A stretch of 59,882 bases of DNA from Thermoanaerobaculia bacterium (GCA_036266195.1 DATANP010000366.1:1-59882), one strand, 5' to 3'. Positions 7,091-52,666 are shown, counted from the first letter of the stretch. The notes: a model not told the origin generated them from the sequence alone. Numbers and translations are program-made.

Positions 7091-7096
7091 AACCCT

Positions 7097-8809: not shown

Positions 8810-8810
8810 G

Positions 8811-9798: not shown

Positions 9799-9831
9799 CG
9801 ACTCGTTGGACGCGTCAACCGGAGCGTTGGA

Positions 9832-10827: not shown

Positions 10828-13800
10828 TGAGATTCGTCCCTCCGGGAGAGGTACCGCTCCAACTCACGGGCCAGGCCTCCGACATGGGGCTCGGCCAGGA
10901 TTGTAAGGTGCTGGCCGGGTACGGGCACAACTTCGACAGGGCTCTGCACGACGCGGCCCCAGCCCAGGTCCGGCTCGCTCAGAGGACCCTCGGAGACCGG
11001 CGGCATGTCGGCGGCGCGGATCAGGGTCAGGCCGCCGGGGTACGGCCGGGGCTCGTAGGCACCGGCCGCGTTGGCGTTGGCCTTGTAGACGCGCAGGATG
11101 CGGGCGAGTTGCTCGACCCCGGCGCCGGGCGGCAGGAAGTCGGCGCCGCGCAGGCGCTCGGCGAAGACTTCGAGCTGAGCCTCCATGTCCAGGCTCTCCA
11201 GGTCCGCGCGGGTCAGCCCAAGGCTCTTGCCCCAGAGGCTCTCGACGTAGGCGGCCATGTCTAGGAGGAAGTCGATGTCGGTCTGGAATCCCGCGGCCTC
11301 GGCCGTGAGGTCCGGGACGCTGTCGAGGATGGCGAGGAGCGCCACCTCCTCTCCCTGCTCGCGGAGCTGGCGGGCCATTTCGAAGGCCACGACGCCGCCG
11401 AGCGACCAGCCGCCGAGATGGTAGGGACCCTGCGGCTGCTGCCGGCGCATCTCTTCGACGTAGTGCGCGGCCATGTCCTCGATGCGCGTGAGCGGCGGCT
11501 CGGCACCGGCCAGGCCCTGCGACTGGAAGCCGAAGAACGGCTGGTCCGGACCCAGGTGGCGCGCCAGCGCGGCGAAGCAGAGCACGTCGCCGCCCGCGGG
11601 GTGGACGCAGAAGAGCGGCGGACGCGAGCCGGACGGCTGGATCGGGACGAGCGAGGTGGAGGCCTCTTCGGACTCTCCGGCGCGCAGGCGGGCCGCCATC
11701 TCTTCGACGGTGCCACCCTGGAAGAGGATGGAGAGCGGCAACTCGTGGCCGAAGCGCTGCTGGACCTGGGCCATGAGCTTCACGGCGAGCAGCGAGTGGC
11801 CGCCGGCCTCGAAGAAGTTGTCGCGGACTCCCACGCGCGGGACGCCCAGGACCTCCTGCCAGATGCGGACGAGCTCCAGCTCGACGACGTCCCTGGGCTC
11901 GACGAAATCGGCGCCTGCATGGTCGTCCGCGGACGGGTCGAGGCGCAGCAGGGCGTCGCGGTCGATCTTGTCGGTCGGGGTGCGGGGCAGCGCCTCCAGG
12001 AAGGTGAAGCTGCCGGGCACCATGTAGTCGGGCAGGCGGTCGCGCAGGTGCTCGCGCAGGTCCTGGGCCGCGAGCGGCGGCAGGTCCTCGTCGCCCTCCA
12101 GGACCGGCCCGGGCACGACGAAGGCGGCGAGGCGCTTGCCGCCGCGGCCGTCGTCACGGACCAGGACGGCGTACTCGCGCAGGCGCGGATGAGTGCCGAG
12201 CGCGGCCTCGATCTCGCCCAGCTCGATGCGCAGGCCGCGGATCTTGATCTGGCGGTCGATCCGGCCGAGGAATTCGAGCTCGCCGTCGGCGTTCCAGCGC
12301 GCCAGATCGCCGGTGCGGTACAGGCGCTCGCCCGGGTGTTCGGCGAGGGCGAACGGATCGGGCGCGAAGCGCTCCGCGGTCAGCTCCGGCCGGTTCAGGT
12401 ATCCGCGCGCCAGGCCGGCGCCGCCGATCCAGAGCGCGCCGGGCACTCCGACGGGCGCGGGCTGGCCCTGGAAGTCGAGCACGTAGGCGCGCGAGCCGCC
12501 GACCGGGCGGCCGATGGGCGGCTCCTTGCGGTAGACACCCGAGCAGACGTGGACCGTGGTGTAGATGGTGGTCTCGGTCGGGCCGTAGCAGTTGAGGAGC
12601 CGGCGCAGGATCGAATCCGGCGGCGACCAGCGGCTCGCCAACTCGCCCGGGCAGCTCTCTCCGCCGACGCTCACCACCTCCAGTGTGGGCATGCCCTCCT
12701 GGGGGAGCGAGTTGAGGACGGACGGCGTGAGCACCGCGGTGGTGATGCCGTCGCGCCGGATCATGGCGGCCAGGGCGTCGCCCGAGAGCAGGGTCTCCTG
12801 GCGGGCCACGCAGAGGGCGGCCCCGGTGGACAGAGCGGTCCAGGTCTCCAGGACCGAGGCGTCGAAGCTGAACGAGACGGACTGGAGCAGGCGGCTCTCC
12901 GGCCCCACTCCGAAATGCTCGACCGCGCGGCGGATGAGGTTCACCGCCGAGCCGTGGCGCACGAGGACGCCGTTCGGACGCCCGGTCGAGCCCGAGGTAT
13001 AGATGACGTAGGCGAGATGGTCCGGCCCGACGCCGGCGCCCGCGGAGATCCGCGGCTCGATCTCCCAGTCGTCGAGGTCGAGGCAGAGGGTTTCGGCGTC
13101 GTGGTCCGGCAGCGCGTCGAGCAGGCGGCTCTCGATGATCAGGACGCGGGCGCGGGAGTCTTCCAGCATCCAGGAGAGGCGCTCGCGGGGGTGCGACGGA
13201 TCGAGCGGAATGTAGGCGCCGCCGGCCTTGAATACCCCGAGAACCGCCATGATCCTCTCGATGCCGCGCTCGAGGGAGATCCCGACAAGTCCCTCGGGAC
13301 CGACCCCGAGACTACGCAGCCGGCCCGCGAGGCGCTCCGACCGCTCGTCCAGCTCGCCATAGGTCATCGTCCGGTCGTCGAAGATCACGGCCGGAGCCTC
13401 GGGCCGGCGCTTCGCCTGCTCCTCGAACAGGTGGTGCAGGCAGCAATCAGCGATGTCGAAATCCGAGGTCGCGGTGTCGTTCCACTGGACGAGGATCTGG
13501 TCGCGCTCGGAGGCGGTGAGGAGCGGCAGCTCCGAGAGCGGCCGGTCCGGGTTCCCGGCCGCGGCGCCGAGGAGGATCGCCATGTGGTCGGACAGGCGGT
13601 CGATGGTGGACGGATCGAAAAGGTCGGCGCTGTACTCCCAGGAGCCGTCGAGCGTGTCGGAGCGGCCGATCTCCGGCTCGGTGATGCCGAGGAGGAGATC
13701 GACCTTGGCCGAGGCGCCCTCGGCGCCAAGCGGCGAGAGGACGAGGCCGGGCAGCTCCAGCGGCTGGGCCGGGGTGTTGAAGGTGAAAACCACCTGGTAG

Positions 13801-16800
13801 ACGGGGTTGCGCGCCAGGCTGCGCTCGATCTTGAGCTCGTCCACGAGGCGCTCGAACGGCAGGTCCTGATGGGCGTAGGCGCCGAGGGCCGCGGTGCGCA
13901 CGCGGCCGAGCAGTTCGCGGAAGGTGATCCCCTGCGGCGCCGGGGAACGGAATTCGCCGCGCAGGACCAGGGCGTTGACGAAGAAGCCGATCAGGCCTTC
14001 GACCTCGCTCCGCGTGCGGTTCGCCACGGGCGAGCCGACGAGAATGTCCTCCTGGCCGGTGTAGCGATGGAGGATCGCCTGGAGGCCGGCGAGGAGGACC
14101 ATGAAGAGCGTGGCGCCGCTATCTCGGGCCACCTCACGGAGTGCCTGCGGCACGGGCGCGGGCAGGCGCATGGGCCGGTGGCCGCCGCGGAACGACTGCA
14201 CGGGCGGTCGCGGATGGTCCGTGGGCAGGTCGAGGACGGTGCGAACGCCCTGCAGGCGCTCGCGCCAGTAGGCGATCTGGGCCTCCAGCACCTCGCCGCG
14301 CAGCCACTGGCGCTGCCAGACCGCGAAGTCGGCGTACTGGACCGGCAACGGCGGGAGCGCCGAGGGGCGGCCGTCGAGGAAGGCGCGGTAGAGTGCGGCC
14401 ATCTCGGCGGTGAGCACGCCCACGGACCAGCCGTCGCTCACGATGTGGTGCATGTTGAGGAGCATGGCCCAGTCCTCGTCGCCGTTGCGGACGAGCAGGG
14501 CGCGCAGGAGCGGACCGCGGTGGAGGTCGAACGGCTGGGCGGCCTCGGAGCTCAGCGCGAGCCGGGCCTCGGCCTCGCGGCGGTCTCCGGGCAGGGCGGT
14601 GAGGTCCACCACGGGCACCGGCACGTGAAGCTCCGGCGCGACGGCCTGGAACGGCCGGCCCTCGTGCTGGTCGAAGGTGGTGCGCAGGGCCTCGTGGCGG
14701 CGGACGATCTCGTTGAGCGCGGCTGCGAGCGCGGCCACGTCGAGCCGGCCGGTGGCGCGCAGGGCCGACGGCACGTTGTAGAGCACGCCCCCGGGCTCCA
14801 GGCGGTCGAGGAACCACAGGCGCTCCTGGGCGAAGGAGAGCGGCGGCCACGGGCCGCGCTCCTCGGCGGAGAGCGGCAGGATGGGAGGCGCGGCCACTCC
14901 TCCAGCGTCGCGGAGCGCAGCCTCGACGCGCCGCGCGAGCGCGTCCAGCCGCGGCGTCTGGAACACGGCGCGCAGCGGCAGCTCGACGCCGAAGGCCTCG
15001 CGCAGGCGCGAGACGAGTCGGGTGGCGAGCAGCGAATGGCCGCCGAGGTCGAAGAAGTCGTCGGAGGGGCGGATGCGTTCGATCCCGAGCAGCTCGCTCC
15101 AGATGCCGGCCAGCATCTCCTCAGTCGACGTGAGGTGGACGGCCCCCGTCTCTTCCGCCTGGGGCTCGGGCTTGATGCGGGCGAGCGCCCTGCGGTCCAC
15201 CTTGCCGCTGGCGTTGAGCGGCATGGCATCCAGGGCTATGAAGGCGGAGGGCACCATGTAGGGCGGCAGGCGCGCGGCCAGGGTCTCGCGTAGTGCGTGA
15301 AGGGCCGGCAGGCTCTGGCCCTCGCGCGGCGTGAGGTAGGCGACGAGGTGCTTCTCACCACCCTCCTGATCGACCAGCACGACCGCCTCGCGGATCTCGG
15401 GCAGGGCGACGAGCGCGGCCTCGATCTCGCCCAGCTCGATGCGGAAGCCGCGAATTTTGATTTGATGGTCAATGCGGCCGAGGAACTCGACGTCGCCGTC
15501 CGGCAGCCAGCGCACGAGGTCGCCGGTGCGGTAGAGGCGCTCTCCGGGAGTACCGAAGGGGTTGGGCACGAAGGACACTGCGGTCAGCTCGGGGCGGTGG
15601 CGGTAGCCCCGGGCCAGGCCCGCGCCGGCGATGCACAGCTCCCCCGGCACGCCCACCGGCACGGGCCGGAAGGCGCGATCGAGGACGAAGACCCGGATGT
15701 TCTCGATGGACCGGCCGATGGTCGGCGGCCGGTCGCCCTCGCGGAGCACGACCGCGGCGTTGGTCACCACGGTACTCTCGGTGGGGCCGTAGTGGTTGAC
15801 CAGATCGAAGGGGTGCTCGCGGCGCGGCCGGCGCAGGAGGCGGTCGCCGCCTGTGAGGATCGTGCGCAGGACCAGCCGCTCGGGCACGGGCTCGGTCAGA
15901 ACCGCCTCGACGAGCGGCGTGGGCAGGAAGGTGATGGTGATCCCCTCCTCCGCCATCCAGGCCCAGAGGTCCGGCGGCGAGGCCACGATGTCGGCCGGCG
16001 GCACGTGCAGCGAGGCTCCCGAAGCGAGCGCCGGCCAGATCTCCCAGACCGACGCGTCGAAGCCGGAACCGGCCAGGAGCGCGCAGCGGTCGTCCGGCGT
16101 CAGGCCGTAGGCGCGCCGGTGCCAGGAGACCAGATTCGAGAGGCCCGAATGCCGAAGCTCTGTGCCCTTCGGGTTGCCGGTCGAGCCTGACGTATAAATC
16201 ACATAAGCAAGGTTTTCAGGCTCCACGGCGACCTGGATCCGATCTCCCTCTTCAAGATCGAGCGCGTCGAGACACAGCGCCGGAACGCCCGCGGGCTCCA
16301 ACTCGCCCGCCAGCTCCTGGCTGGTGAGGACGGCAAGGGCGCCCGAGTCGCGCAGCGTGTAGAGCAGGCGCTCGGCCGGGTTCGAAGGATCGAGCGGCAG
16401 GTAGGCGCCGCCCGCCTTAAGCACGGCGAGGACCGCGAGGACCTGCGTGGGCGAGCGCTCCAGGCAGACGGCCACGACCTTTTCAGGTCCGGCTCCCATC
16501 TCCCGGAGCCGGGCTGCCAAACGGTCCGCGCCGCGATCCAGCTCGCCGTAGCTGAGCCGGCTGTCGCCCTGGACCACAGCCAGGGCATCGGGGTTGCGCG
16601 CCGCCTGCTGCTCGATCAGGCGATGGACGCGGACGTCCTCGACTGGCAGCGAGACGCCGGCCCAATCCTCCAGGAGCTGGCGCCGCTCCTCTTCGGCGAG
16701 CAGCGGGAGGTCCTCCAGGCTGCGGTCGGGATCGGCGAGCGCGCCTTCGAGGAGGATGGCGTAGTGCCGCAGGAGCCGCTCGGCGGTCGCGGGCTCGAAG

Positions 16801-19800
16801 AGGTCGATGTCGAACTGGATGCCCGCGACGATCTCGCCCGCCGGCCTCTCCTCCAGGGCCACGCTCAGCTCGAACTTGGCCGCGGTGACCTCGAAATCGA
16901 TGGGCGCCAGGGTGAGCCCCGGCAGCTCCAGGGCTCCCGAGGGGCCGGCCGCGGTCTGCACCGAGAACGAGACCTGGAAGAGCGGTGTGCGCACGAGGTC
17001 GCGGCCCTCGCCCATCTCATCCACCAGCTTTTCAAACGGCAGGTCCTGGTGCGCGAAGGCGCCGAGCACGCTCTCGCGGGTGCGCGCCAACAGGCCGCGG
17101 AAGCTCGGCGGACCCGAGAGCCGGCCGCGCAGCACGAGGGTGTTCACGAAGAAGCCGATCAGCGCCTCGGTCTCCGGCAGCGGCCGGTCGGCCACGGGCG
17201 AGCCCACGAGGAGGTCGTCCTGGCCCGTGTAGCGGCCGAGGAGCGCCTGGAAGGCGGCGAGGAGGAGCATGAACGAGGTCGCGCCCTCCTTCTGCCGCAG
17301 CGCGGTCACGGCGTTGCCAATCCCCGCCGGGAAGCTCAGCCAGGCGCTGGCGCCGCGGTTGGTGGGCGCGGGCGGACGCGGACGGTCGGTCGGCAGCTCC
17401 AGCTTCGTGGGCGCGCCGTCCAGCTCGCGCTTCCACCAGTCGAGCCGGCCCGCGAGCCCCTCGCCCTGGAGCCGCTCGCGCTGCCACTCGGCATAGTCGG
17501 CGTACTGTACCGGCAGGTCCGGCAAAGGCGACGGGCGGCCCTGGGAGAAGGCGTTGTAGAGCGCGCCCAGCTCGCGCACCAGGACGTTGAAGGAGAGCCC
17601 GTCGCAGACGATGTGATGAAAGGTCAGAATGAGCGCCCAGGAGTCCTCCGCCAGGTGGGCCAGCACACCCCGGACCACGGGCCCGTGGGCGAGGTCGAAG
17701 GAGGTCCGGTCGTGCTGCTCGACCAGGTCGCGGACCGCGGCGAGTTGCCGGTCCCCGGGCACGTGCCGCAGGTCGGCCTGCCGGAGCTTCAGGGGCGACG
17801 GAGGGTGGACGACCTGTTTCGGGTTTCCGTCGATCTCGGGAAACACGGTGCGCAGCACCTCGTTGCGGCGCACGACCTCGTCCAGGCTGCGCTGGAAGGC
17901 GTCCAGGTCCAGCCGGCCGTCGAGGCGCAGGGCGATGGTGACGTTGTAGAGGCTCGTGCCGGGCTGGAGACGGTCGAGGAACCAGAGGCGCTCCTGCCCG
18001 AACGAGAGACGGGCCGGGCCGGCGCTCACGCGCCTGGGGATCGTGAGGCGCGGCGCCTCGTCCGCGGCCTGGAGCTTCGCGGATTTCGCCTTCATGAGCT
18101 TCGCCAGGGCGGCGCGCTTCTGGTCGGAGAGGCCGGACCGGCGCTCGGACAGCTCGCCCTCGCGGGCCGCGACCCGGTTGCGCAGCTCCTCCTCTTTCCG
18201 CTGGGACTCGTCCTCCGCGGAGGCCGCTGCGGCGGACACCTCGGCGGGCTCCCCGCCAAGGACCTGCCGGCGCTCGGGTTCGGGAATCCGCGGCAGGTCC
18301 GAGACCTGGCGGTCGGGATCGTCCATGACTGCCTCCAGGATCACACGGAAGTGCTCCGACCAGCGCTCGATCGTGGATGGGTCGAAGAGATCGGCACTGT
18401 ACTGGAACCCGCCGAGCAACTCGCCCCGGAACTCCCCGAGGCCGAGCGTGACGTCGAACAGCGAGACGTCGGAGTCGCGGTCCAGCAGCGAGAGGGCGAG
18501 CCCGGGCAGGGCCGGCTCCTCCAGGGGCGCGTTGTGGAGGCCGAACATTACCTGGAAAAGCGGGTTGCGGTCCAGGCTGCGCGCCACCTGCAGGCTCTCC
18601 ACCAGCTTCTCGAACGGGAGGTCCTGGTGGACGTAGGCGCCCAGGGCCACGGTCCGGACACGCCTGACGAGATCGCGGAACGTGCCCGGCCCCTCCCGGC
18701 TGCGCAGCACGAGCGTGTTGATGAAGCAGCCGATGAGCGGCTCGGTCTCGGGCCGGCCGCGACCCGCCACGGGCGTGCCGACCAGCAGGTCGTCCTGCCC
18801 GCTCACCCGGTGCAGAACCGTCTCGAAGCAGGCGAGGAGGGTCATGAACAGGGTCGCGCCCAGCCGCCGGCTGAGCGCCTGGGCGCGCTCCAGAACCGCC
18901 GCCGGCAAGGTCAGCTCGCGCGTGGCGCCGCGGTGGCTCACCACGGCCGGCTGCGGCCGGTCGGTGGGCAGCTCGATCTTCTCCGGCGCGCCGGCCAGCG
19001 CCTCGCGCCACCAGGCGAGCAGGCGGTCCAGCGCCTCGCCCTGGAGCCATGCGCGCTGCCAGACCGCCACGTCGCCGTACTGCACGGGGAGCGGGGGCAG
19101 AACGGGCTCACGGCCATCGCCGGGGTCGACGATCCGGCCGTAGAGATCCGCCAACTCGCCGAGGAGCACGCTGGTGGACCAGCCGTCGCTCGCGATGTGA
19201 TGGACGGACAGGGTGAGGACCCAGGCCCGGTCGTCCAGCCGCAGGAGGCGGAAGCGCGTGACCCTCCCCTCCTCCAGCCGGTAGGGCAGGCCCTCCTCCT
19301 CCTTGGCGAGGCGCACGGCCTCGGCCTCGCGGAGGCTCTCGGGGAGACCGCGGAGATCGCTGACCGGGAGGGTCACGGCTGTCTCGGCCTGGACCCTCTG
19401 CACGGCGCGGCCGTTCTCCGTGGCGTAGGCCGTGCGCAGGACCTCGTGGCGGCGGACGATCTCCTGGAGCGCGGCGCGCAGGGCGGGCACGGAGAGCCGG
19501 CCGGTCAGACGCACGGCGAGCGAGATGTTGTACAGCGGGCTCGCCGGATCGAGCTGGTAGAGGAACCAGAGGCGCTCCTGGGCAAAGGAGAGCGGCAGGT
19601 CCTCGCCGGTCCGGGGGCGCGGCAGGATCGGCGGCAGGGCGATGCCTCTCTCGTCCGCCAGCAGGCTGTCCAGCGCGGCGGCGAGCCCGGCCACGGTCGG
19701 CGCCTCGAAGACCGTGCGGAGCGAGAGCTGCACGCCCAGCTCGTTCGAGAGGCGCGAGATCAGGCGCGTGGCGAGCAGCGAGTGGCCGCCAAGGTCGAAG

Positions 19801-22800
19801 AAGTCGTCGTCCACGCCAATGCGGTCCCGCTTCAGCAGCTCGGCCAGGATGCCGGCCACCAGCTCCTCGGTCGGCGTGCGCGGCTCGATCAGGTCGCCGG
19901 GCCGCTCGTCCCGAAGAGCCGTCTGCGCCAAAACGCGGCGGTCCACCTTGCCGTTGGCGTTGAGGGGCAGCGCTTCCAGCCAGGCGAAGCCGGATGGGAC
20001 CATGTAGGCCGGCAGGCGCTTTTCGAGGAACGGCCGGAGGTCGGTCTCCGCCCCGACCAGGAACGCTACCAGGTGCTTGTCCGAGCCCTCGCCCTGGACG
20101 ACCACGGACGCCTCGGCCACCGCGGGGTGCTCGCAGAGCGTGGTCTCGATCTCCCCGGGCTCGATGCGGAAGCCGCGGATCTTCACCTGCTGGTCGATCC
20201 GGCCCAGGAATTCGATCTCGCCGGTGGGTCGGTACCTGGCGAGGTCACCGGTACGGTAGAGACGGCCTCCGGGCGGACCGAGCGGGTCGGGCACGAAGCG
20301 CTCGGCGGTGAGGTCCGGCCGGTTGAGATAACCCCGCGCCAGGCCGTCGCCGCCGATGCACAGCTCTCCCAAACCTCCGGCGGGCACGAGGCGCAGCCCG
20401 CGGTCGAGCAGGTAGACCCGGGTGTTCGAGATCGGACGGCCGATCGGCACCGCGGCGTCGGCTCCGGGCGGCGAGGTCATGAGATGGCCCGTCGTAAACG
20501 TGGTGCTCTCGGTGGGGCCGTAGCCGTTCATCAGGACCAGCCCGGGGTTCTCGCGCAGGACCCGGTCCACGTGCGGCGGCGAGAGCACGTCGCCACCGGC
20601 CATGAGGAACCGCAGCCCGCGAAAGCTGTCCGGACGGGCCTCGACGAGCTGGTGGAACAGCCCGGCCGTGAGCCACATGACAGTCACCTTCTCGCGCAGG
20701 AAGGCGTCGCCCAGCTCGTCGAGCGAGAGCGCGTGCGGCGGCGGCATGACGACGGTGCCGCCGATGAGCAAGGGGCCCCAAATCTCCAGCGTCGAGGCGT
20801 CGAAGGCCAGGGGCGCAAACTGCAGGACCACGTCTCCGGGCTGGAAGTCGGCGAACCAGTTCTCCTTGAGAAGGCGCGCCACGTTGCGGTGGGTCACCGC
20901 GACGCCCTTGGGCCGGCCCGTGGAGCCGGACGTGAACAGCACGAAGGCGAGGTTTTCGGAGTCCGGCCGCGGACCGTGGGACAGCCCGGGGCCGTCCTCC
21001 TCCATCGTCAGGATCGACGTTCCCTCCGGCAGCCGGCCTCGTAGGTCGCCGCGGGTCACGACCACGGGCGCGGTGTCTGCGATGACGAAGGCGATCCGGT
21101 CGGCGGGCAGGGAGGGATCGAGCGGCACGTAGGCGCCGCCCGCCTTGAGGGTGGCGAGCAAGGCCACGATCTGCTCCGGCGAGCGCTCCAGGAAGACGCA
21201 CACGAGACGATCCGGCCCGATCCCCGCGGACCGCAGCCGGCCGGCCAGGACCTCGGCCCGAGCGTCCAGCTCGGCGTAGGTCATGGAGCCCGAGGCGGAC
21301 CGCATCGCTTCGGCGTCCGGCGAGCGGCGGACCTGCTCCTCGAACATTTCATGGATCAGGGCGTAGCGCGGGTAGTCCGTGGCCGTGGCGTTCCACCCCG
21401 AGACGAGTTGCTCGCGCTCGGCCTCGCCGATCAGCGGGAGGTCGGCGATCGGCAGCTCCGGGCGCGCACACGCGCCGCGCAGCAGGTTGGCGAGCTGTCC
21501 GGCGAGGCGCTCCACGGTGGCGGCGTCGAACAGGTCGGTGGCGTACTCCAGGAAACCTGCCAATCCGGTCTCTTCCTCGAACAGCGCCAGGAACAGATCG
21601 AATGGCGTGGCGCCGGGGTGGCGCTCCTCCATCCGGACTTCGAGGCCGGGCAGCGAGAAGCGCGGCAGCGGCACCTGGATGGTGACCGCCGCCTGCGCGA
21701 GCGTATTGTGGCTCAGGCTGCGCTCGATGCGCAGCTCCTCGACCAGCTTGTCGAACGGCAGGTCCTGGTGCGTGTAGGCGCCGAGGGCCATGGACCGCGC
21801 CTGCTCCAGCAGCGCCTCGAACGGGATCTCTTCCGACGGCCGGCCGCGCAGGACGAGCGTGTTGGTGAAGAAGCCGATCAGCGGCTCGACCTCCGGCCGG
21901 AGCCGGTTCGCGATCGGCGTGCCGATCAGCATGTCCTCCTGCCCGGTATACCGATGGAGCAGGGCCTGGAACGCCGCGACGAGAGTCATGAACGGCGTGG
22001 CTCCGCGGCGCGCGCTCAGGTCGCGCAGCGGGCGGTCGAGATCGCGCGGCAGCTCCACGCGGATGCGGGTGCCGCGGAAGCTCTGGAGCTGCGGGCGCGG
22101 CCGGTCGAGGGGCAGCTCCAGAAGCTTCGGCACGCCGTCGAGGGTCTCCCGCCACCAGGCGACCTGCCGCTCCACCACGCCGCTTTCGAGCCACCCGCGA
22201 TGCCAGACCGAGAAGTCGGCGTACTGGATCGGCAGCTCCGGCAGCTCCTCGCCCCACCCCCGCAGATACAGGGCGACCAGCTCCCGGGCCATCACGTCCA
22301 TGGACCAGCCATCCCCTACGATGTGGTGGAGGTTGAGCAGCAGCACATGTTCGTCCGGCGCGAGGCGGACCAGCTCGTACCGGAACACGGGCCCATGCTC
22401 CAGGTCGAACGGCCGGCTGGCCTCATCCGCCGCATGACGTGCGAAGTCATCACGGGCCAGATCGATCCGGGTCAGGGGCGCGGGCTCGAACCGCAGCACG
22501 GTCTGGAGCGCGCCCTCGTCTGTCTGGCGAAAGACGGTGCGCAGTACCTCGTGGCGCCGCACGATCTCCTGGAGGGCCCGTTCCAGCGCGGCCTCGTCGA
22601 GATCGCCGTCGAAGCGCACCGCGTACGGCATGTGGTAGACGGCCTGGTTCTCCAGCATCTGGCTCAGGAACCAGAGCCGCTCCTGGGCATAGGACTGAGG
22701 AACCGGTCCAGTCCTCTCCAGACGGGGAATCGGCGGCAGGGCCGCGGACGGCTCGCCGGATTCGATGCGCGCCGCGAGCGCCTTGATGGTCGAAGCCTCG

Positions 22801-24581
22801 AACAGCACGCGCAGCGGCACCTCGACGCCGAAGACCTCGCGCACCTTGAGGAGAATCCGGGTGCCGACCAGCGAATGGCCGCCCACCTCCAGGAACGGGT
22901 CCTCGACGCCGACCCGCTCGGTCCCGAGCGCCTCCGCCCAGATCGCGGCCAGCGCCGACTGCACCGGGTCCTGCGGTGCTACGTACTCCCGGCCGTGCTG
23001 GCGGTCGTAGGTCGGCTCGATGCGCGCCAGGGCGCCGCGGTCGATCTTGCCGTTCGGATTGAGCGGCATATCGTCGAGGAAGACGAAGGCCGCGGGCAGC
23101 ATCGGGTCCGGCAGCCGCTCCGCAAGGAAATCCAGGAGATCTCCCTGCGTCGCCGCTTCCCCCTCGGACACCACATAGGCCACCAGCCGCTTCTCGCCGG
23201 GCGTGTCCTCGCGGGCGACCACGGCGGTGTCGCGCACGGCAGGGTGCGAGACCAGGGCGGCCTCGATCTCGCCCAGCTCGATGCGGAAGCCGCGGATCTT
23301 GACCTGATGGTCGATGCGCCCGAGGTAGTCGAGCTCGCCGTCGGGCCGCCAGCGTACGAGGTCGCCAGTGCGGTACGCGCGCTCGCCGGGCACGGTCGAG
23401 AACGGGTCCGGCACGAAACGCTCGGCGGTCAGCTCCGGCCGGTTCAGATAGCCGCGGGCGAGTCCGGAGCCCGCCAGGAGCAGCTCGCCCGGCTCTCCGG
23501 CTTCCCCGATCCTCCTCCCCCGCTCGTCGAGCACGTACGCGGACGTCCCTTCGAGCGGCCGGCCGATCGACGGCTCGCCCGAGCCCGGCAGCACCTCCGC
23601 ATAGGTCGAGTAGGTCGTGTCCTCGGACGGGCCGTAGAGGTTCCACAGGTGCCCCACCGTGCCGAGCGCGTGGATGCGCTCGGCCAGCACGCCGCGCAGC
23701 GGCTCGCCGGCCAGGTTCACGACCTGGACCGAGGGCGGCACCACATTCATGCGCAGCAGCTCTGCCATCGCGGATGGCACCGTGTTGATCAGCGTGACCT
23801 CGGAGGCCGCCGGGGTGCGGGCCAGCGCCAGCGCGTTTTCGCCGAGGATCACCCGCCCGCCCAGCGACAGCGGCACGAACAGCTCGAACACCGACAGGTC
23901 GAAGTTGATCGACGTCGAGGCGAACACGCCGGCCAGCGACTCCGGCGGGAACACGCCGCGCGCCCAGTCCACCATGGCCACGGCGCTGCGGTGCCCGATC
24001 GCCACCGCCTTCGGCCGGCCGGTCGAGCCGGAGGTGAAGATCAGGTAGGCGAGATTGCCGCTCGTGGCACCGCTTTGAAGATTCTCGTCAGGTCCCCCTT
24101 CGCGGTCCTCATCCTCCAGGAAGAGCACGCGCGTGCCGGGCGGAGGCTCGGGCAGATTGGCGGCCAGATGCCGGCGCGTCAGGAGCACGGGCGAAGACAG
24201 GCCGCGGTGCGCGTCTTCCAGGAGCAGCGCCAGGCGGTCGCGCGGATAGGCGGGGTCCAGGGGCGCGTAGGCTCCGCCCGCCTTGAGGATCGCCAGGAGA
24301 GCCACGACCATGCCTGGAGTGCGGTCCACGGAGACGGCGACCCGCTGCTCGGGCCCCACCCCCAGCTCGCGAAGCCGCCGCGCCAGCCGGTTGGCCCGAC
24401 GGTTGAGCTCGGCGTAGGTCAGCTCCAGCCGGGAGGCGCCGGGCTCCGGCGCATAGACGAGCGCCGTGCGGCCGGGCTCGCGCGCAGCCAGTTCCTCGAA
24501 GCGCCCGTGCAGGAGCTCTCCGGAAACGGCTGCGCTCTGCGCCGGGTGCGGCCCGGCTGCAGCTTCCTGGACCATCGCCAT
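10824..24581 (-). CDS. NRPS-A (4585 aa): A-T-C-A-T-C-[helical linker]-C-A-T-C-A-T-TE
   Basis: T-domain GGHS Ser codons at 22872, 19779, 15033 and 11793. HHxxxDG at 22323 (HHIVGDGWS), 19197 (HHIASDGWS), 17612 (HHIVCDGLS) and 14445 (HHIVSDGWS). A3 SGSTG cores near 24015-24050, 20908-20950, 16168-16210 and 12971-13012. TE GWSLGG at 11394-11414. ATG24581 is preceded by AGGAGGAG. Confidence 0.96.
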   Translation of the reverse strand: MAMVQEAAAGPHPAQSAAVSGELLHGRFEELAAREPGRTALVYAPEPGASRLELTYAELNRRANRLARRLRELGVGPEQRVAVSVDRTPGMVVALLAILKAGGAYAPLDPAYPRDRLALLLEDAHRGLSSPVLLTRRHLAANLPEPPPGTRVLFLEDEDREGGPDENLQSGATSGNLAYLIFTSGSTGRPKAVAIGHRSAVAMVDWARGVFPPESLAGVFASTSINFDLSVFELFVPLSLGGRVILGENALALARTPAASEVTLINTVPSAMAELLRMNVVPPSVQVVNLAGEPLRGVLAERIHALGTVGHLWNLYGPSEDTTYSTYAEVLPGSGEPSIGRPLEGTSAYVLDERGRRIGEAGEPGELLLAGSGLARGYLNRPELTAERFVPDPFSTVPGERAYRTGDLVRWRPDGELDYLGRIDHQVKIRGFRIELGEIEAALVSHPAVRDTAVVAREDTPGEKRLVAYVVSEGEAATQGDLLDFLAERLPDPMLPAAFVFLDDMPLNPNGKIDRGALARIEPTYDRQHGREYVAPQDPVQSALAAIWAEALGTERVGVEDPFLEVGGHSLVGTRILLKVREVFGVEVPLRVLFEASTIKALAARIESGEPSAALPPIPRLERTGPVPQSYAQERLWFLSQMLENQAVYHMPYAVRFDGDLDEAALERALQEIVRRHEVLRTVFRQTDEGALQTVLRFEPAPLTRIDLARDDFARHAADEASRPFDLEHGPVFRYELVRLAPDEHVLLLNLHHIVGDGWSMDVMARELVALYLRGWGEELPELPIQYADFSVWHRGWLESGVVERQVAWWRETLDGVPKLLELPLDRPRPQLQSFRGTRIRVELPRDLDRPLRDLSARRGATPFMTLVAAFQALLHRYTGQEDMLIGTPIANRLRPEVEPLIGFFTNTLVLRGRPSEEIPFEALLEQARSMALGAYTHQDLPFDKLVEELRIERSLSHNTLAQAAVTIQVPLPRFSLPGLEVRMEERHPGATPFDLFLALFEEETGLAGFLEYATDLFDAATVERLAGQLANLLRGACARPELPIADLPLIGEAEREQLVSGWNATATDYPRYALIHEMFEEQVRRSPDAEAMRSASGSMTYAELDARAEVLAGRLRSAGIGPDRLVCVFLERSPEQIVALLATLKAGGAYVPLDPSLPADRIAFVIADTAPVVVTRGDLRGRLPEGTSILTMEEDGPGLSHGPRPDSENLAFVLFTSGSTGRPKGVAVTHRNVARLLKENWFADFQPGDVVLQFAPLAFDASTLEIWGPLLIGGTVVMPPPHALSLDELGDAFLREKVTVMWLTAGLFHQLVEARPDSFRGLRFLMAGGDVLSPPHVDRVLRENPGLVLMNGYGPTESTTFTTGHLMTSPPGADAAVPIGRPISNTRVYLLDRGLRLVPAGGLGELCIGGDGLARGYLNRPDLTAERFVPDPLGPPGGRLYRTGDLARYRPTGEIEFLGRIDQQVKIRGFRIEPGEIETTLCEHPAVAEASVVVQGEGSDKHLVAFLVGAETDLRPFLEKRLPAYMVPSGFAWLEALPLNANGKVDRRVLAQTALRDERPGDLIEPRTPTEELVAGILAELLKRDRIGVDDDFFDLGGHSLLATRLISRLSNELGVQLSLRTVFEAPTVAGLAAALDSLLADERGIALPPILPRPRTGEDLPLSFAQERLWFLYQLDPASPLYNISLAVRLTGRLSVPALRAALQEIVRRHEVLRTAYATENGRAVQRVQAETAVTLPVSDLRGLPESLREAEAVRLAKEEEGLPYRLEEGRVTRFRLLRLDDRAWVLTLSVHHIASDGWSTSVLLGELADLYGRIVDPGDGREPVLPPLPVQYGDVAVWQRAWLQGEALDRLLAWWREALAGAPEKIELPTDRPQPAVVSHRGATRELTLPAAVLERAQALSRRLGATLFMTLLACFETVLHRVSGQDDLLVGTPVAGRGRPETEPLIGCFINTLVLRSREGPGTFRDLVRRVRTVALGAYVHQDLPFEKLVESLQVARSLDRNPLFQVMFGLHNAPLEEPALPGLALSLLDRDSDVSLFDVTLGLGEFRGELLGGFQYSADLFDPSTIERWSEHFRVILEAVMDDPDRQVSDLPRIPEPERRQVLGGEPAEVSAAAASAEDESQRKEEELRNRVAAREGELSERRSGLSDQKRAALAKLMKAKSAKLQAADEAPRLTIPRRVSAGPARLSFGQERLWFLDRLQPGTSLYNVTIALRLDGRLDLDAFQRSLDEVVRRNEVLRTVFPEIDGNPKQVVHPPSPLKLRQADLRHVPGDRQLAAVRDLVEQHDRTSFDLAHGPVVRGVLAHLAEDSWALILTFHHIVCDGLSFNVLVRELGALYNAFSQGRPSPLPDLPVQYADYAEWQRERLQGEGLAGRLDWWKRELDGAPTKLELPTDRPRPPAPTNRGASAWLSFPAGIGNAVTALRQKEGATSFMLLLAAFQALLGRYTGQDDLLVGSPVADRPLPETEALIGFFVNTLVLRGRLSGPPSFRGLLARTRESVLGAFAHQDLPFEKLVDEMGEGRDLVRTPLFQVSFSVQTAAGPSGALELPGLTLAPIDFEVTAAKFELSVALEERPAGEIVAGIQFDIDLFEPATAERLLRHYAILLEGALADPDRSLEDLPLLAEEERRQLLEDWAGVSLPVEDVRVHRLIEQQAARNPDALAVVQGDSRLSYGELDRGADRLAARLREMGAGPEKVVAVCLERSPTQVLAVLAVLKAGGAYLPLDPSNPAERLLYTLRDSGALAVLTSQELAGELEPAGVPALCLDALDLEEGDRIQVAVEPENLAYVIYTSGSTGNPKGTELRHSGLSNLVSWHRRAYGLTPDDRCALLAGSGFDASVWEIWPALASGASLHVPPADIVASPPDLWAWMAEEGITITFLPTPLVEAVLTEPVPERLVLRTILTGGDRLLRRPRREHPFDLVNHYGPTESTVVTNAAVVLREGDRPPTIGRSIENIRVFVLDRAFRPVPVGVPGELCIAGAGLARGYRHRPELTAVSFVPNPFGTPGERLYRTGDLVRWLPDGDVEFLGRIDHQIKIRGFRIELGEIEAALVALPEIREAVVLVDQEGGEKHLVAYLTPREGQSLPALHALRETLAARLPPYMVPSAFIALDAMPLNASGKVDRRALARIKPEPQAEETGAVHLTSTEEMLAGIWSELLGIERIRPSDDFFDLGGHSLLATRLVSRLREAFGVELPLRAVFQTPRLDALARRVEAALRDAGGVAAPPILPLSAEERGPWPPLSFAQERLWFLDRLEPGGVLYNVPSALRATGRLDVAALAAALNEIVRRHEALRTTFDQHEGRPFQAVAPELHVPVPVVDLTALPGDRREAEARLALSSEAAQPFDLHRGPLLRALLVRNGDEDWAMLLNMHHIVSDGWSVGVLTAEMAALYRAFLDGRPSALPPLPVQYADFAVWQRQWLRGEVLEAQIAYWRERLQGVRTVLDLPTDHPRPPVQSFRGGHRPMRLPAPVPQALREVARDSGATLFMVLLAGLQAILHRYTGQEDILVGSPVANRTRSEVEGLIGFFVNALVLRGEFRSPAPQGITFRELLGRVRTAALGAYAHQDLPFERLVDELKIERSLARNPVYQVVFTFNTPAQPLELPGLVLSPLGAEGASAKVDLLLGITEPEIGRSDTLDGSWEYSADLFDPSTIDRLSDHMAILLGAAAGNPDRPLSELPLLTASERDQILVQWNDTATSDFDIADCCLHHLFEEQAKRRPEAPAVIFDDRTMTYGELDERSERLAGRLRSLGVGPEGLVGISLERGIERIMAVLGVFKAGGAYIPLDPSHPRERLSWMLEDSRARVLIIESRLLDALPDHDAETLCLDLDDWEIEPRISAGAGVGPDHLAYVIYTSGSTGRPNGVLVRHGSAVNLIRRAVEHFGVGPESRLLQSVSFSFDASVLETWTALSTGAALCVARQETLLSGDALAAMIRRDGITTAVLTPSVLNSLPQEGMPTLEVVSVGGESCPGELASRWSPPDSILRRLLNCYGPTETTIYTTVHVCSGVYRKEPPIGRPVGGSRAYVLDFQGQPAPVGVPGALWIGGAGLARGYLNRPELTAERFAPDPFALAEHPGERLYRTGDLARWNADGELEFLGRIDRQIKIRGLRIELGEIEAALGTHPRLREYAVLVRDDGRGGKRLAAFVVPGPVLEGDEDLPPLAAQDLREHLRDRLPDYMVPGSFTFLEALPRTPTDKIDRDALLRLDPSADDHAGADFVEPRDVVELELVRIWQEVLGVPRVGVRDNFFEAGGHSLLAVKLMAQVQQRFGHELPLSILFQGGTVEEMAARLRAGESEEASTSLVPIQPSGSRPPLFCVHPAGGDVLCFAALARHLGPDQPFFGFQSQGLAGAEPPLTRIEDMAAHYVEEMRRQQPQGPYHLGGWSLGGVVAFEMARQLREQGEEVALLAILDSVPDLTAEAAGFQTDIDFLLDMAAYVESLWGKSLGLTRADLESLDMEAQLEVFAERLRGADFLPPGAGVEQLARILRVYKANANAAGAYEPRPYPGGLTLIRAADMPPVSEGPLSEPDLGWGRVVQSPVEVVPVPGQHLTILAEPHVGGLARELERYLSRRDESQ
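10827..11650 (-). other. Thioesterase (TE) domain of NRPS-A
   Basis: PPLFCVHPAGGDVLCF ... HLGGWSLGGVVAFEMA (GxSxG), C-terminal to the last T domain. Boundaries are approximate. Confidence 0.9.
18009..18284 (-). other. ~92-aa charged helical linker between two C domains (RRSGLSDQKRAALAKL ... IPRR)
   Basis: PEPERRQVLGG...ESQRKEEELRNRVAAREGELSERRSGLSDQKRAALAKLMKAKSAKLQAADEAPRLTIPRRVSAGPAR, followed by LSFGQERLWF. No GGxS or A-domain motifs lie within it. Confidence 0.85.
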
Positions 24582-24688: not shown

Positions 24689-40521
<15,833 letters not shown>

Positions 40522-40525
<4 letters not shown>

Positions 40526-52607: not shown

Positions 52608-52666
52608 GTCCCCCCTCTCCCGGCGGGGGGTGGACGGGAGATGGGAGAGGGGACAGGGGGTGAGGT
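52501..52666. repeat. 166-bp nested palindromic GC-rich element (MITE/REP-like) inserted in an A domain
   Basis: Outer arms are acctcaccccctgtccccctctcccgtctcccacccgcc (52501-) and ggcggggggtggacgggagatgggagaggggacagggggtgaggt (-52666). Inner arms are ccgggagagggggaac and gtcccccctctcccgg. Four GGGAGAGGGG motifs occur in alternating orientation. Confidence 0.85.

What the first reader, a model, noticed from the sequence alone, without database searches (positions are those of the whole stretch)
18009..18284. C-linker-C didomain with a conserved charged helical linker, found three times in the cluster
In NRPS-A two complete condensation domains sit back to back (HHIASDGWS at 19197, HHIVCDGLS at 17612) with no A or T domain between them.

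The ~92-aa connector starts like an ordinary C-A linker (PEPERRQVL). It then becomes a low-complexity, highly charged segment that looks helical: ESQRKEEELRNRVAAREGELSERRSGLSDQKRAALAKLMKAKSAKLQ...IPRR. It runs straight into the LSFGQERLWF start of the next C domain.

The same element recurs inside NRPS-D (58373-58562: LQDRLAERERRLAALRSRMSDTQRAALGHLRSK..GIPRR). It also forms the very C-terminus of NRPS-B (24692-24868: LQARLSAREEEVAERRSALSDQKRAALQKLLQRKAK-stop). The shared core is R-x-x-[LM]-S-D-x-[KQ]-R-A-A-L.

Canonical NRPS logic has no role for T-C-C-A. From memory, LSxEKRxLL...IPRR leaders occur at the N-termini of free-standing NRPS subunits that start with a C domain. The linker may therefore be a docking helix captured by gene fusion, or a platform for recruiting a module in trans. 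I cannot name a described family for it.
Basis: partly seen in the sequence, partly recalled or inferred. Interest (0 to 1): 0.78.

Follow-up and report, generated by a model that had tools for sequence, protein, structure and literature searches.

The report
Helical docking module between tandem condensation domains
A conserved 40-residue basic two-helix module sits next to condensation domains three times in this acidobacterial peptide-synthetase cluster, and it most likely docks a carrier domain from another subunit, so the odd C-C pair may be a point where two chains join.

Summary
Three homologous copies of a ~40-aa basic helix-turn-helix element ("HP", core RS-x-[LM]-S-D-x-[KQ]-R-A-A-L) lie at C-domain boundaries: C-HP-C in NRPS-A, C-HP-C in NRPS-D, and C-HP-stop at the end of NRPS-B. 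No Pfam or NCBIfam model hits it.

Both flanking C domains are LCL-type with intact HHxxxDG. They are not E, dual E/C or starter domains. The fused HP is under purifying selection as strong as the catalytic domains (dN/dS 0.16), while its flanks drift.

A profile search of 1.84 billion proteins finds only 17 carriers. Every genome locus recovered is Holophagales/Acidobacteriota. The element always sits after a C domain (C-terminal), before a C domain (N-terminal), or between two C domains. Split (C-HP | HP-C) and fused (C-HP-C) versions of the same junction exist.

In five loci, a carrier domain ending in a long acidic helix (...[12 protein letters not shown]) is encoded immediately upstream of an HP-bearing subunit. 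One of these is a canonical T | HP-C junction.

Best reading: HP is a docking module for that acidic carrier tail, working like PaxA/PaxB docking but without detectable sequence homology. Here it has been redeployed at tandem-C junctions. The chain-merging step is inferred, not shown.

The parts
18066..18191 (-). HP core in NRPS-A (aa 2131-2172, EELRNRVAAREGELSERRSGLSDQKRAALAKLMKAKSAKLQA): helix-turn-helix between two C domains
   Evidence: AF2 gives helix 19-55, a turn at GLS, then helix 59-81, with pLDDT 83-90. HP profile hit E 4e-15. 92.9% identity and dN/dS 0.16 against ortholog L004.
18192..18299 (-). First half of a C-A linker (DLPRIPEPERRQVL), followed by a variable Ala/Glu-rich spacer (aa 2095-2130)
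   Evidence: The stub aligns with the start of ordinary C-A linkers. The spacer is 56% identical with indels against L004, and low pLDDT.
18012..18065 (-). Variable post-HP linker ending in IPRR, leading into the next C domain (aa 2173-2190)
   Evidence: 67% identity and dN/dS 0.92 against L004.
18300..19604 (-). Pre-HP condensation domain of NRPS-A (HHIASDGWS), LCL-like, member of a distinct 'pre-HP' clade
   Evidence: Pfam Condensation. Best PDB matches are LCL domains (Txo1/2, TycC6, FscG), with no E-domain hits. Forms a clade with B_C4999, P0006, P0012, P0018 and L012. dN/dS 0.27.
16692..18011 (-). Post-HP condensation domain of NRPS-A (HHIVCDGLS), LCL-like, followed by A(Leu-like)-T
   Evidence: dN/dS 0.35.
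24692..24820 (-). HP core forming the C-terminus of NRPS-B (…ALQARLSAREEEVAERRSALSDQKRAALQKLLQRKAK-stop)
   Evidence: HP profile E 2.7e-15. The same C-HP-stop arrangement occurs in L002, L003, L004, L005, L006 (twice), L008 and L012.
24884..26170 (-). Pre-HP condensation domain of NRPS-B (HHVASDGWS)
   Evidence: 59% identical to A_C1794, its closest paralogue, and in the same clade.
58412..58531 (-). HP core in NRPS-D (ALQDRLAERERRLAALRSRMSDTQRAALGHLRSKSPV) between two C domains
   Evidence: HP profile E 2.2e-16. In the relative P0005 the same HP is N-terminal and the first C is absent.
58577..59860 (-). First C domain of NRPS-D (HHIVADGWS), at or near the protein's N-terminus
   Evidence: It clusters with post-HP-type C domains. 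A P0010-type relative ends as C-HP-stop.
57062..58372 (-). Post-HP C domain of NRPS-D (HHIVSDNWS)
40525..40614 (-). Proposed partner: extended alpha4 helix plus acidic C-terminal tail of the last carrier domain of the KS-ACP-C-A-T subunit ([30 protein letters not shown]-stop)
   Evidence: AF2 predicts one 27-residue terminal helix, mean pLDDT 94. Net charge is -6, against +2 to +6 for HP helix 2. A tail profile matches only true subunit C-termini, and in each case the next gene carries an HP.
40522..45942 (-). Subunit S0: KS-ACP-C-A-T-tail. Its stop overlaps the NRPS-B start (ATGA).
24689..40525 (-). NRPS-B: (A-T-C)x5 followed by HP. It starts in the second half of a C-A linker.
10824..24581 (-). 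NRPS-A: A-T-C-A-T-C-HP-C-A-T-C-A-T-TE
48132..59863 (-). NRPS-D plus ORF1491: C-HP-C-A-T-C-A / T-C-A-T-TE (one line, interrupted at 52604-52607)
   Evidence: The relative P0005 is uninterrupted.

Best explanation
The repeated segment is an autonomous docking module of about 40 aa (HP). It consists of a roughly neutral helix, an R-S-x-L-S-D turn with an N-cap, and a strongly basic helix, and it is always attached to a condensation domain by flexible, fast-evolving spacers.

Its ancestral and simplest use is as an N-terminal docking domain of a subunit that starts with a C domain. There it captures the carrier domain of the preceding subunit through that carrier's unusually long, acidic last helix and tail (...[20 protein letters not shown]). 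The post-HP C domain then takes the docked carrier as its donor.

In this cluster, extra arms that start with a loading A-T and end with a specialised LCL-type C domain have been placed on the N-terminal side of the HP. The arm is fused in NRPS-A (and NRPS-D is built the same way). In NRPS-B the arm is a separate subunit that ends C-HP.

A second C domain therefore faces the same docking site. I propose that the KS-ACP-C-A-T subunit docks at the HP. The pre-HP C domain then transfers the arm's peptide onto a second nucleophile of the docked intermediate, whose A domain has an acidic pocket of the kind seen for diamino acids. The post-HP C domain passes the merged chain on to the TE-terminated half.

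Shown: the element, its fold prediction, its selective constraint, its three positions, the split/fused equivalence, and the tail/HP gene adjacency. Inferred: binding, the partner, and the order of chain transfer. The overall confidence of 0.45 combines about 0.7 for a docking role, about 0.55 for the acidic carrier tail as partner, and about 0.3 for chain merging.
For: 1. Helix-turn-helix with pLDDT 83-90. No Pfam or NCBIfam domain.
2. In the fused state the HP is as constrained as the catalytic domains: 92.9% identity and dN/dS 0.16, against 0.16-0.36 for A/T/C/TE. Its spacers are at 56-67% identity with dN/dS up to 0.92. So it is functional, not a relic.
3. Portability: the 17 carriers among 1.84e9 proteins have it C-terminal after a C domain, N-terminal before a C domain, or between two C domains. 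It is never next to an A or T domain.
4. Split and fused versions of the same junction exist. L002 has ...T-C-HP stop, a ~110-bp gap, then HP-C-A-T-C-A-T-TE. L003, L004 and the window have ...T-C-HP-C-A-T-C-A-T-TE.
5. Partner evidence. The long-alpha4 acidic tail occurs only at true subunit C-termini in five loci, and the next gene always carries an HP. In L010/L011 this is a canonical T-tail|HP-C junction with an ATGA overlap. In L013 it is T-tail|A-T-C-HP-C. In the window, L006 and L007 it is T-tail|A-T...C-HP.
6. P0008 residues 812-1484 are 58% identical to P0013 starting exactly at the HP, so the A-T-C arm is an add-on upstream of a docking domain.
7. Tail and HP variants co-vary in two groups.
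8. Charges are complementary: tail -6 to -9, HP helix 2 mean +3.9. AF2 predicts a 27-residue terminal helix on the carrier.
9. This matches the composite docking described for PaxA T1-CDD/PaxB NDD: a long acidic alpha4 plus a short CDD binds a ~35-aa basic two-helix NDD in front of a C domain (PMC8251938).
10. Pre-HP C domains of the arms form their own clade, and so do most post-HP C domains. All have intact HHxxxDG and are under purifying selection.
11. Tail-bearing modules facing a pre-HP C have acidic specificity codes (DIWEITAVAK, DIWEITADDK, DTEDIGTIVK). The one facing a plain HP-C does not (DLKNFGTDVK).
12. Icosalide IcoA shows that a T-C-C-A-T module can merge two chains (PMC6553374).
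Against: - No binding or product data exist.
- The window has three HPs but only one tail-bearing subunit. The model therefore needs S0 to serve two lines (NRPS-B to NRPS-D/ORF1491, and NRPS-A modules 1-2 to modules 3-4), or it leaves one HP unexplained.
- NRPS-B's C-HP is followed by an A-T-starting gene. This could instead be a split C|A-T module.
- In split junctions both sides carry an HP, which also fits direct HP-HP pairing.
- D_C143 does not belong to the pre-HP clade and has no visible donor carrier.
- The diamino-acid reading of the A-domain code rests on my memory of the Dab signature. A literature search for that string found nothing.
- The tail/HP co-variation involves few, related genomes and could be phylogenetic.
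- No sequence homology to PaxB NDD (1.0 bit; Smith-Waterman shuffle p about 0.09). Foldseek found nothing.
Confidence: 0.45

Rival explanations
1. HP-HP 'double-helix pair' docking. A C-terminal HP on a subunit ending in a C domain binds the homologous N-terminal HP of the next subunit, forming a four-helix bundle as in trans-AT PKS docking. The internal copies are what remains after gene fusion and now serve as a structured spacer between two C domains.
For: L002 and L006 have an HP on both sides of a split C|C junction. The two HPs are homologous, and each is a predicted helix-turn-helix. The VirA/VirFG docking domains work this way and sit at split-module junctions (PMC9113145).
Against: - Fused copies are under the strongest constraint in the protein, which is unexpected for a relic.
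- Helix 2 of both partners carries +4 to +6 charge.
- Several C-terminal HPs are followed by A-T-starting subunits without any HP: the window, L003, L004, L005 and L006.
- L010/L011 have an N-terminal HP whose upstream neighbour ends in a T-tail, not C-HP.
- It does not explain why two C domains meet.
Confidence: 0.2
2. Colinear split modules. Subunits are cut in the C-A linker, so each C-HP is the C domain of a module whose A-T lies on the next protein (NRPS-B to NRPS-A). In C-HP-C the missing A-T is supplied by a free-standing or neighbouring A-T that docks on the HP. The product is linear.
For: - The pre-HP stub is the first half of a C-A linker, and NRPS-B, P0012 and P0018 start with the second half (..QILEEWNDT).
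- The gene order C-HP | A-T recurs.
- The number of C domains equals the number of A domains in each line.
Against: - A-T-starting subunits have no N-terminal docking element.
- There is no free-standing A-T in the window.
- The junction S0 (…A-T-tail)|NRPS-B (A-T…) would lack a C domain altogether, although these two genes are translationally coupled.
- L002 has C-HP directly followed by HP-C, with no A-T to pair with.
Confidence: 0.15
3. The pre-HP C domain is a tailoring or silent domain (cryptic epimerase, dehydratase or structural), so that T-C*-C is functionally like T-E-C. The helical segment is then merely an inter-domain linker.
For: E-C didomains are the commonest tandem Pfam-Condensation arrangement (PMC1894796). 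Pre-HP C domains form their own clade with altered motifs, LIGCF[IV]NT and SLFDL.LGLGEF.
Against: - The best structural relatives are LCL elongation domains. No E domain reaches E<=1e-10, and AmbE CmodAA and CDA-C1 score low.
- The C2 motif is RHE.LRT, not the dual-E/C HH motif.
- The same HP occurs at protein termini without a second C domain. A linker would not be conserved at 93% while its flanks drift.
Confidence: 0.08
4. The linker is a degenerate carrier-like adaptor domain (as TomB BN) or the remnant of a deleted A-T.
For: TomB has a PCP-like, serine-less adaptor in front of its C domain that recruits the donor PCP (PMC11186497). The HP turn 'GLSD' superficially recalls GGxS.
Against: Only two helices and about 40 ordered residues are predicted, not a four-helix bundle. 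There is no PP-binding or AMP-binding signal even at E<=10.
Confidence: 0.03

Closest known systems
PaxA T1-CDD / PaxB NDD composite docking of the PAX-peptide NRPS (Watzel et al. 2021, PMC8251938; PDB 7B2B, 7B2F)
   Same: A ~30-40-aa, positively charged, two-helix V-shaped element in front of a C domain. Its partner is a carrier domain with an elongated, acidic alpha4 helix plus a short C-terminal helix. The type is predicted to be widespread at T|C junctions. The canonical relatives L010/L011 have exactly this layout.
   Different: - No detectable sequence homology to PaxB NDD.
- HP helix 1 is much longer.
- In the window the element is never N-terminal. It lies C-terminal to a C domain or between two C domains, which has not been described for Pax-type docking.
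Four-helix-bundle ('double-helix pair') docking domains of trans-AT PKSs (VirA/VirFG, MlnD/MlnE; PMC9113145; PDB 2N5D)
   Same: Short helix-turn-helix units at both subunit termini. They are portable and used at split-module junctions. Split HP junctions carry a hairpin on each side.
   Different: PKS context. About 25 aa per side. No sequence or Foldseek similarity found. Both HPs are basic. The HP persists, conserved, in fused proteins.
Icosalide synthetase IcoA module 3 (T-LCL-CI-A-T; Jenner et al. 2019, PMC6553374)
   Same: Two condensation domains back to back in front of one A-T. The second takes a donor supplied in trans and the first joins the cis chain, so two chains merge.
   Different: In IcoA the second C is a starter-type (CI) domain using acyl thioesters, and no docking element separates the two. 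Here both C domains are LCL-like, a conserved docking module lies between them, and the trans donor would be a carrier domain of another subunit.
beta-hairpin docking domain / SLiM pairs (TubC, EpoB, Kj12, Bamb_5915)
   Same: An N-terminal docking domain in front of C domains that binds a short acidic C-terminal motif on a carrier. One motif can serve several docking domains.
   Different: A different fold (alpha-beta-beta-alpha-alpha against two helices). No TubC_N hit in Pfam.
TomB BN adaptor domain (Karanth et al. 2024, PMC11186497) and fungal PfaA tandem C domains (PMC11731387)
   Same: BN is a non-catalytic element N-terminal to a C domain that recruits the donor carrier in trans. PfaA is a non-E tandem C-C in which both domains are required and the function is unexplained.
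   Different: BN is a 77-aa PCP-like four-helix bundle. PfaA is fungal and has no reported helical insert.

Membership tests
PaxA/PaxB-type composite T-CDD/NDD docking | NDD: a ~35-aa alpha-helical, two-helix element directly upstream of a C domain | tested here: met
   AF2 predicts helix-turn-helix. Copies precede a C domain in NRPS-A, NRPS-D, P0005, P0011, P0013 and L002.
PaxA/PaxB-type composite T-CDD/NDD docking | NDD positively charged; partner T domain with a long (~4-turn or more) acidic alpha4 helix followed by a short CDD at the protein's C-terminus | tested here: met
   HP helix 2 carries +2 to +6 and the tail -6 to -9. The terminal helix is 27 residues, pLDDT 94. Internal T domains lack the extension.
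PaxA/PaxB-type composite T-CDD/NDD docking | Sequence homology to PaxB NDD / PaxA T1-CDD | tested here: not met
   The HP profile scores 1.0 bit against 7B2B_B, where the shuffle 95th percentile is 4.3. Smith-Waterman shuffle p is about 0.09. hhalign probability is 0.3%. The tail query does not retrieve PaxA.
PaxA/PaxB-type composite T-CDD/NDD docking | NDD located at the N-terminus of the acceptor subunit, with the partner on the preceding subunit | tested here: inconclusive
   Met in relatives L010/L011. Not met for the three window copies, of which two are internal and one is C-terminal.
PaxA/PaxB-type composite T-CDD/NDD docking | Physical, specific binding of T-CDD to NDD | not testable with these tools
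Only gene adjacency and charge complementarity are available.
trans-AT PKS four-helix-bundle docking | Helix-turn-helix on both the C-terminus of one subunit and the N-terminus of the next | tested here: met
   L002 and L006 split junctions.
trans-AT PKS four-helix-bundle docking | Sequence or structural similarity to VirA/VirFG (2N5D) or Mln docking domains | tested here: not met
   The PDB profile search found nothing relevant and Foldseek returned 0 hits.
Icosalide-type dual-initiation module | Domain order T-C-C-A-T | tested here: met
   NRPS-A aa 1565-3225.
Icosalide-type dual-initiation module | The second C is a chain-initiating (starter) C domain | tested here: not met
   A_C2322 best matches LCL structures. 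The starter domain CDA-C1 scores only 46 bits, at the bottom of the list.
E-C didomain / dual E/C | The first domain has epimerase signatures (E-domain clade, or an N-terminal HH[IL]xxxxGD motif) | tested here: not met
   No E-domain structure reaches E<=1e-10. The C2 motif is RRHEVLRT.
Known docking, carrier or adaptor domains in profile libraries (TubC_N, PKS Docking, PP-binding, COM) | A profile hit in the linker | tested here: not met
   Pfam at E<=10 and NCBIfam at E<=1 give only noise.

The most novel reading that the evidence does not exclude
HP-flanked tandem C domains are a previously undescribed NRPS logic element: a chain-merging node. A carrier domain from another subunit is docked between two LCL-type C domains. 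It is used first as the acceptor, when an arm peptide is transferred onto a second amine of its diamino-acid residue. It is then used as the donor, when the merged chain is handed to the TE-terminated half. Whole (A-T-C)n arms can be added, removed, fused or split around the docking module, as seen between the window, L002, L003, L011 and L013. One initiating subunit may feed two assembly lines.
Probability: 0.3. Interest if true: 0.8.

Novelty: new variant of a known kind. Interest (0 to 1): 0.6.

Why it matters
Docking domains decide which NRPS subunits talk to each other, and they are the main handles for re-wiring assembly lines. This element is small, has no profile in Pfam or NCBIfam, and is restricted, in every genome locus recovered, to uncultured Holophagales/Acidobacteriota, a phylum whose large NRPS clusters are chemically unexplored.

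Nature has used it in three positions (N-terminal, C-terminal, internal). Nature has also exchanged whole A-T-C blocks around it, which is a natural experiment in modular engineering at the C-A-linker fusion point.

If the tandem C domains really merge two chains on a docked carrier, this would be a second, mechanistically different route to branched or doubly primed peptides, besides icosalide. It would also explain some of the non-E 'first C' domains that have been noticed but never understood. Finally, it predicts that the products of this cluster are branched lipopeptides built around a diamino acid.

Tried and rejected
- A cryptic domain in the linker: rejected (Pfam, NCBIfam).
- E, dual E/C, starter or CmodAA identity of the flanking C domains: rejected on PDB sequence ranking and motifs.
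- Degenerate PCP or adaptor: rejected on the two-helix prediction.
- Simple colinear S0 to NRPS-B to NRPS-A flow using NRPS-B's terminal C in trans: rejected, because NRPS-B's last carrier would then have no C domain to reach NRPS-A.
- Word-indexed homologue search with the 3-copy alignment: only 2 hits. The same tool with the carrier tail: no candidates.
It succeeded with 6 sequences.
- Metagenome scan with the tail alignment: 600 pattern matches, none confirmed. With the HP alignment: one extra locus.
- Foldseek of the HP model against the PDB: no hits.
- HP profile against PDB sequences: only coiled-coil noise.
- Homology to PaxB NDD: not demonstrable.
- Look-up of the window's own NRPS-D (P0003) to see what lies upstream of the window: not on record. 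P0001 and P0010 contigs had no DNA available.
- Literature searches for the Dab specificity code and for Holophagales NRPS: nothing useful.
- A PDB search with the KS domain only showed it is a trans-AT-type KS and did not bear on the finding.
Full report
**1. Observation**

The window (GC about 70%) carries five large minus-strand synthetase genes.
- S0, 40522-45942: KS-ACP-C-A-T. There is no AT domain. The KS cysteine is intact.
- NRPS-B, 24689-40525: (A-T-C)x5 plus a tail.
- NRPS-A, 10824-24581: A-T-C-A-T-C-[linker]-C-A-T-C-A-T-TE.
- NRPS-D, 52604-59863: C-[linker]-C-A-T-C-A.
- ORF1491, 48132-52607: continues NRPS-D as ...T-C-A-T-TE.

The other two copies lie where stated. The three copies align at 44-55% identity, with invariant R..RE......RS..SD..RAAL..L.

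A profile of the element hits the window exactly three times (E 2e-16 to 4e-15).

Two corrections apply. NRPS-D's first C lies at or next to the ORF's N-terminus, so its context is not demonstrably T-C-C-A. NRPS-B starts at 40525 with an A domain, overlapping the S0 stop by ATGA.

**2. What the element is**

Neither Pfam (E<=10) nor NCBIfam (E<=1) recognises anything in the linker.

AlphaFold2 on an alignment of five copies predicts a long helix, a three-residue turn at G-L-S and a second helix. pLDDT is 83-90 in that core, and the flanks are disordered. I call the ~40-aa core HP.

In NRPS-A, four pieces lie between the two C domains:
- the first half of an ordinary C-A linker (DLPRIPEPERRQVL);
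- a variable Ala/Glu spacer;
- the HP;
- a variable linker ending in IPRR, before the next C domain.

Against the ortholog in MAG locus L004, the HP is 92.9% identical with dN/dS 0.16. This is as low as the best-conserved catalytic domain. The spacer is 56% identical with indels, and the post-HP linker has dN/dS 0.92. Both flanking C domains are constrained (0.27 and 0.35). The fused HP is therefore a functional unit on flexible tethers, not a fusion scar.

**3. Distribution**

The word-indexed search found only two relatives. One is a C-domain end followed by HP and a stop (P0001). The other is an HP at the very N-terminus of a C-starting subunit behind a divergent promoter (P0002/L001).

The exhaustive profile search of 1.84e9 representative proteins found 17 carriers at E<=1e-3. 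In these, the HP occupies three positions:
- C-terminal, after a C domain: P0001, P0006, P0010, P0012, P0014, P0018.
- N-terminal, before a C domain: P0005, P0011, P0013, P0015-17, and probably P0009 (a 99-aa fragment).
- Between two C domains: P0003 (which is NRPS-D itself), P0004 (the NRPS-A ortholog), P0007, P0008.

It is never adjacent to an A or T domain. The genome scan returned four loci, all Holophagales/Acidobacteriota MAGs. One more C-terminal case came from metagenomes (L012).

**4. Split and fused junctions**

- L004 reproduces the window.
- L003 has both the NRPS-B-like C-HP end and the fused A-T-C-HP-C-A-T-C-A-T-TE.
- L005 has C-HP stop followed by an A-T-starting gene.
- L002 is split. 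It has ...A-T-C-HP stop, a ~110-bp gap, then a protein that keeps NRPS-A's N-terminal leader (MPMVHDEAAG...) fused directly to an HP, followed by the HHIVCDGLS C domain and A-T-C-A-T-TE. The split junction thus carries two HPs and the fused one carries a single HP. A whole A-T-C-A-T-C block is present or absent upstream of the HP.
- L006 shows S0, then two successive A-T...C-HP subunits (P0012, P0018), then, 6 kb on, an HP-C-A-T-C... subunit.
- L007 has P0005. This is the equivalent of NRPS-D plus ORF1491, but uninterrupted and without the first C, so it starts with the HP. It is followed by S0 and an NRPS-B-like gene.

**5. The likely partner**

S0 ends in ...[32 protein letters not shown]2 predicts that the carrier's last helix runs on for 27 residues to the C-terminus (mean pLDDT 94).

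A profile of this tail matches in full only at true subunit C-termini. These are the window's S0, L007's S0, L006's S0, the protein upstream of P0013 in L010/L011, and the 5914-aa NRPS upstream of P0008 in L013. Internal carriers match only the first 14-20 positions.

In all five loci the very next gene carries an HP.
- In L010/L011 the arrangement is canonical: C-A-T-tail, ATGA overlap, then HP-C-A.
- In L013 the next subunit is A-T-C-HP-C-A-T....
- P0008 812-1484 is 58% identical to P0013 beginning exactly at the HP. So the same tail/HP pair exists with and without an A-T-C arm upstream of the HP.

Tail and HP variants fall into two matching groups:
- ...MIAK[VI]DS...LL tails go with ...LSD[QK]KRAAL HPs.
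- ...VIARLDD... tails go with ...LSE[RK]KRALL HPs.

The tail carries -6 to -9 net charge. HP helix 2 carries +2 to +6 (mean +3.9), and helix 1 is about neutral.

**6. The C domains**

Both the pre-HP and the post-HP C of NRPS-A rank LCL-type structures first (Txo1/Txo2, 5U89, TycC6, FscG). E domains are absent at E<=1e-10. The starter domain CDA-C1 and the dehydrating AmbE domain score near the bottom. All have HHxxxDG.

In a distance tree of 52 C domains, the pre-HP domains of the arms form one clade: A_C1794, B_C4999, P0006, P0012, P0018 and L012. The post-HP domains of NRPS-A, L002 and L006 form another. That second clade lies next to D_C629, P0005 and, unexpectedly, D_C143.

**7. How it probably works**

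Domain counting shows that each line has as many C as A domains. However, (A-T-C)n subunits are sandwiched between (C-A-T) subunits. As a result there is no C at the S0|NRPS-B junction and two C domains at the arm|TE-half junction.

A-T-starting subunits have no N-terminal docking element, so I read them as chain starters.

The simplest scheme that gives every C domain a donor and an acceptor is this. The HP docks the acidic tail of S0's carrier. The C domain downstream of the HP uses that carrier as donor, which is the canonical role seen in L010/L011. The C domain upstream of the HP uses it as acceptor for the arm's peptide.

This scheme needs a second nucleophile on the docked intermediate. 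The specificity codes are consistent with that:
- S0's A domain reads DIWEITAVAK (DIWEITADDK in L007).
- L013's tail module reads DTEDIGTIVK.
- The plain T-tail|HP-C case, L011, reads DLKNFGTDVK.
- The A domain after the HP in NRPS-A is Leu-like, so it offers no side-chain nucleophile.

The first two sets have acidic pockets of the kind seen for diamino acids. The Dab resemblance is from my memory only.

The window would then hold two lines sharing S0: NRPS-B to S0 to NRPS-D/ORF1491, and NRPS-A modules 1-2 to S0 to NRPS-A modules 3-4. This chain-merging step is inference. Its nearest precedent is icosalide module 3, T-LCL-CI-A-T.

The rivals are HP-HP pairing, true C|A-T split modules, a tailoring first C, and a degenerate adaptor. 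They are weighed in the rival section.

**8. Comparison with known systems**

Functionally, the closest described system is the PaxA T1-CDD/PaxB NDD composite docking. There, a long acidic alpha4 plus a short C-terminal helix binds a ~35-aa basic, V-shaped two-helix NDD in front of a C domain. That type is reported as probably widespread (PMC8251938).

I recovered the PaxB NDD sequence from PDB 7B2B. Against it:
- the HP profile scores 1.0 bit, where the shuffle 95th percentile is 4.3;
- hhalign gives 0.3% probability;
- the best Smith-Waterman alignment (LAERKRLL/LSERKRAL) has p about 0.09.

The HP therefore works like that family, but membership by homology is not established.

The trans-AT PKS helix-turn-helix docking pairs (PMC9113145) resemble the two-HP split junctions. 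Neither a PDB sequence search nor Foldseek links them.

Non-E tandem C domains have been noticed before: 86 of 237 'first C' domains in Rausch et al. and fungal PfaA. They come without a docking insert.

**9. Verdict**

The finding is real and non-trivial. The element is best classed as a new variant of a known kind. It is a helical docking module, unprofiled and seen only in Holophagales/Acidobacteriota genomes. What is unusual is that it is placed C-terminal to, and between, LCL-type C domains, with natural split/fused and arm-present/arm-absent variants.

My estimates are:
- docking role: about 0.7;
- acidic carrier tail as partner: about 0.55;
- chain merging: about 0.3.

What remains unexplained is listed in the notebook. 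The main gaps are the role of NRPS-B's HP with respect to the A-T-starting NRPS-A, the donor of D_C143, and what lies beyond the window edge.

Noticed in passing
52560-52650 (junction of NRPS-D and ORF1491): NRPS-D stops inside the C-terminal subdomain of its last A domain. ORF1491 resumes with the A10 motif and a T domain after about 50 low-complexity residues, with a 4-nt overlap. The relative P0005 is one uninterrupted protein, so this is either a frameshift/assembly error or a genuine split within an A domain.
   Followed up: partly
45943-48131, ORF 47132-48088(-): The gap between the two assembly lines has lower GC (0.64 against ~0.71). It encodes a YhgA-like PD-(D/E)XK 'Transposase_31' protein with a DUF4351 C-terminal domain. 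L007 has a Uma2-family gene at the equivalent place. This hints at rearrangement between the two lines.
   Followed up: partly
40522-45942(-): S0 is KS-(KS/AT-linker stub)-ACP-C-A-T, with an intact KS cysteine but no AT. No AT gene is visible in the window. The KS is most similar to trans-AT-type KS structures (7ZMA, 4WKY). How its ACP is loaded is unknown.
   Followed up: partly
40522-40528: The S0 stop and the NRPS-B start overlap as ATGA, suggesting translational coupling. This holds even though NRPS-B begins with A-T and no C domain sits at that junction. The same ATGA overlap joins T-tail and HP-C in L010/L011.
   Followed up: yes
17592-17618 and 57970-57996 (C3 motifs of the post-HP C domains): Post-HP C domains carry unusual C3 motifs, HHIVCDGLS and HHIVSDNWS, which are conserved in relatives (L002, P0004, P0005). 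P0013's equivalent is degenerate (HPAAGDRES).
   Followed up: no
18300-19604 and 24884-26170: The pre-HP C clade has signature changes: LIGCF[IV]NT instead of LIGFFVNT, and [ST]LFDL.LGLGEF instead of TAKFDL.L. These might mark an altered acceptor side.
   Followed up: no
NRPS-A modules 3-4 (10824-17000) against NRPS-D module 2 plus ORF1491: The two TE-terminated halves are paralogous. They have matching A-domain codes (DAWF[LV]GHVV, DALVSGC[IV]YK) and their C domains are 58-60% identical. The two lines should therefore end in the same or very similar dipeptide.
   Followed up: partly
L002 9922-10120 against window 24500-24581 and 18066-18299: L002's TE-half keeps NRPS-A's N-terminal leader (MPMVHDEAAG...) joined directly to the HP. 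The 2.1-kaa block A-T-C-A-T-C is a clean indel between two conserved short segments.
   Followed up: yes
1-10800: The flank next to the cluster encodes a MoxR AAA ATPase, DUF58/VWA, SpoIIM-like, a DEAD-box helicase, a double alpha/beta-hydrolase protein and a cytochrome c. No obvious tailoring, export or Dab-supply genes were seen on this side.
   Followed up: no
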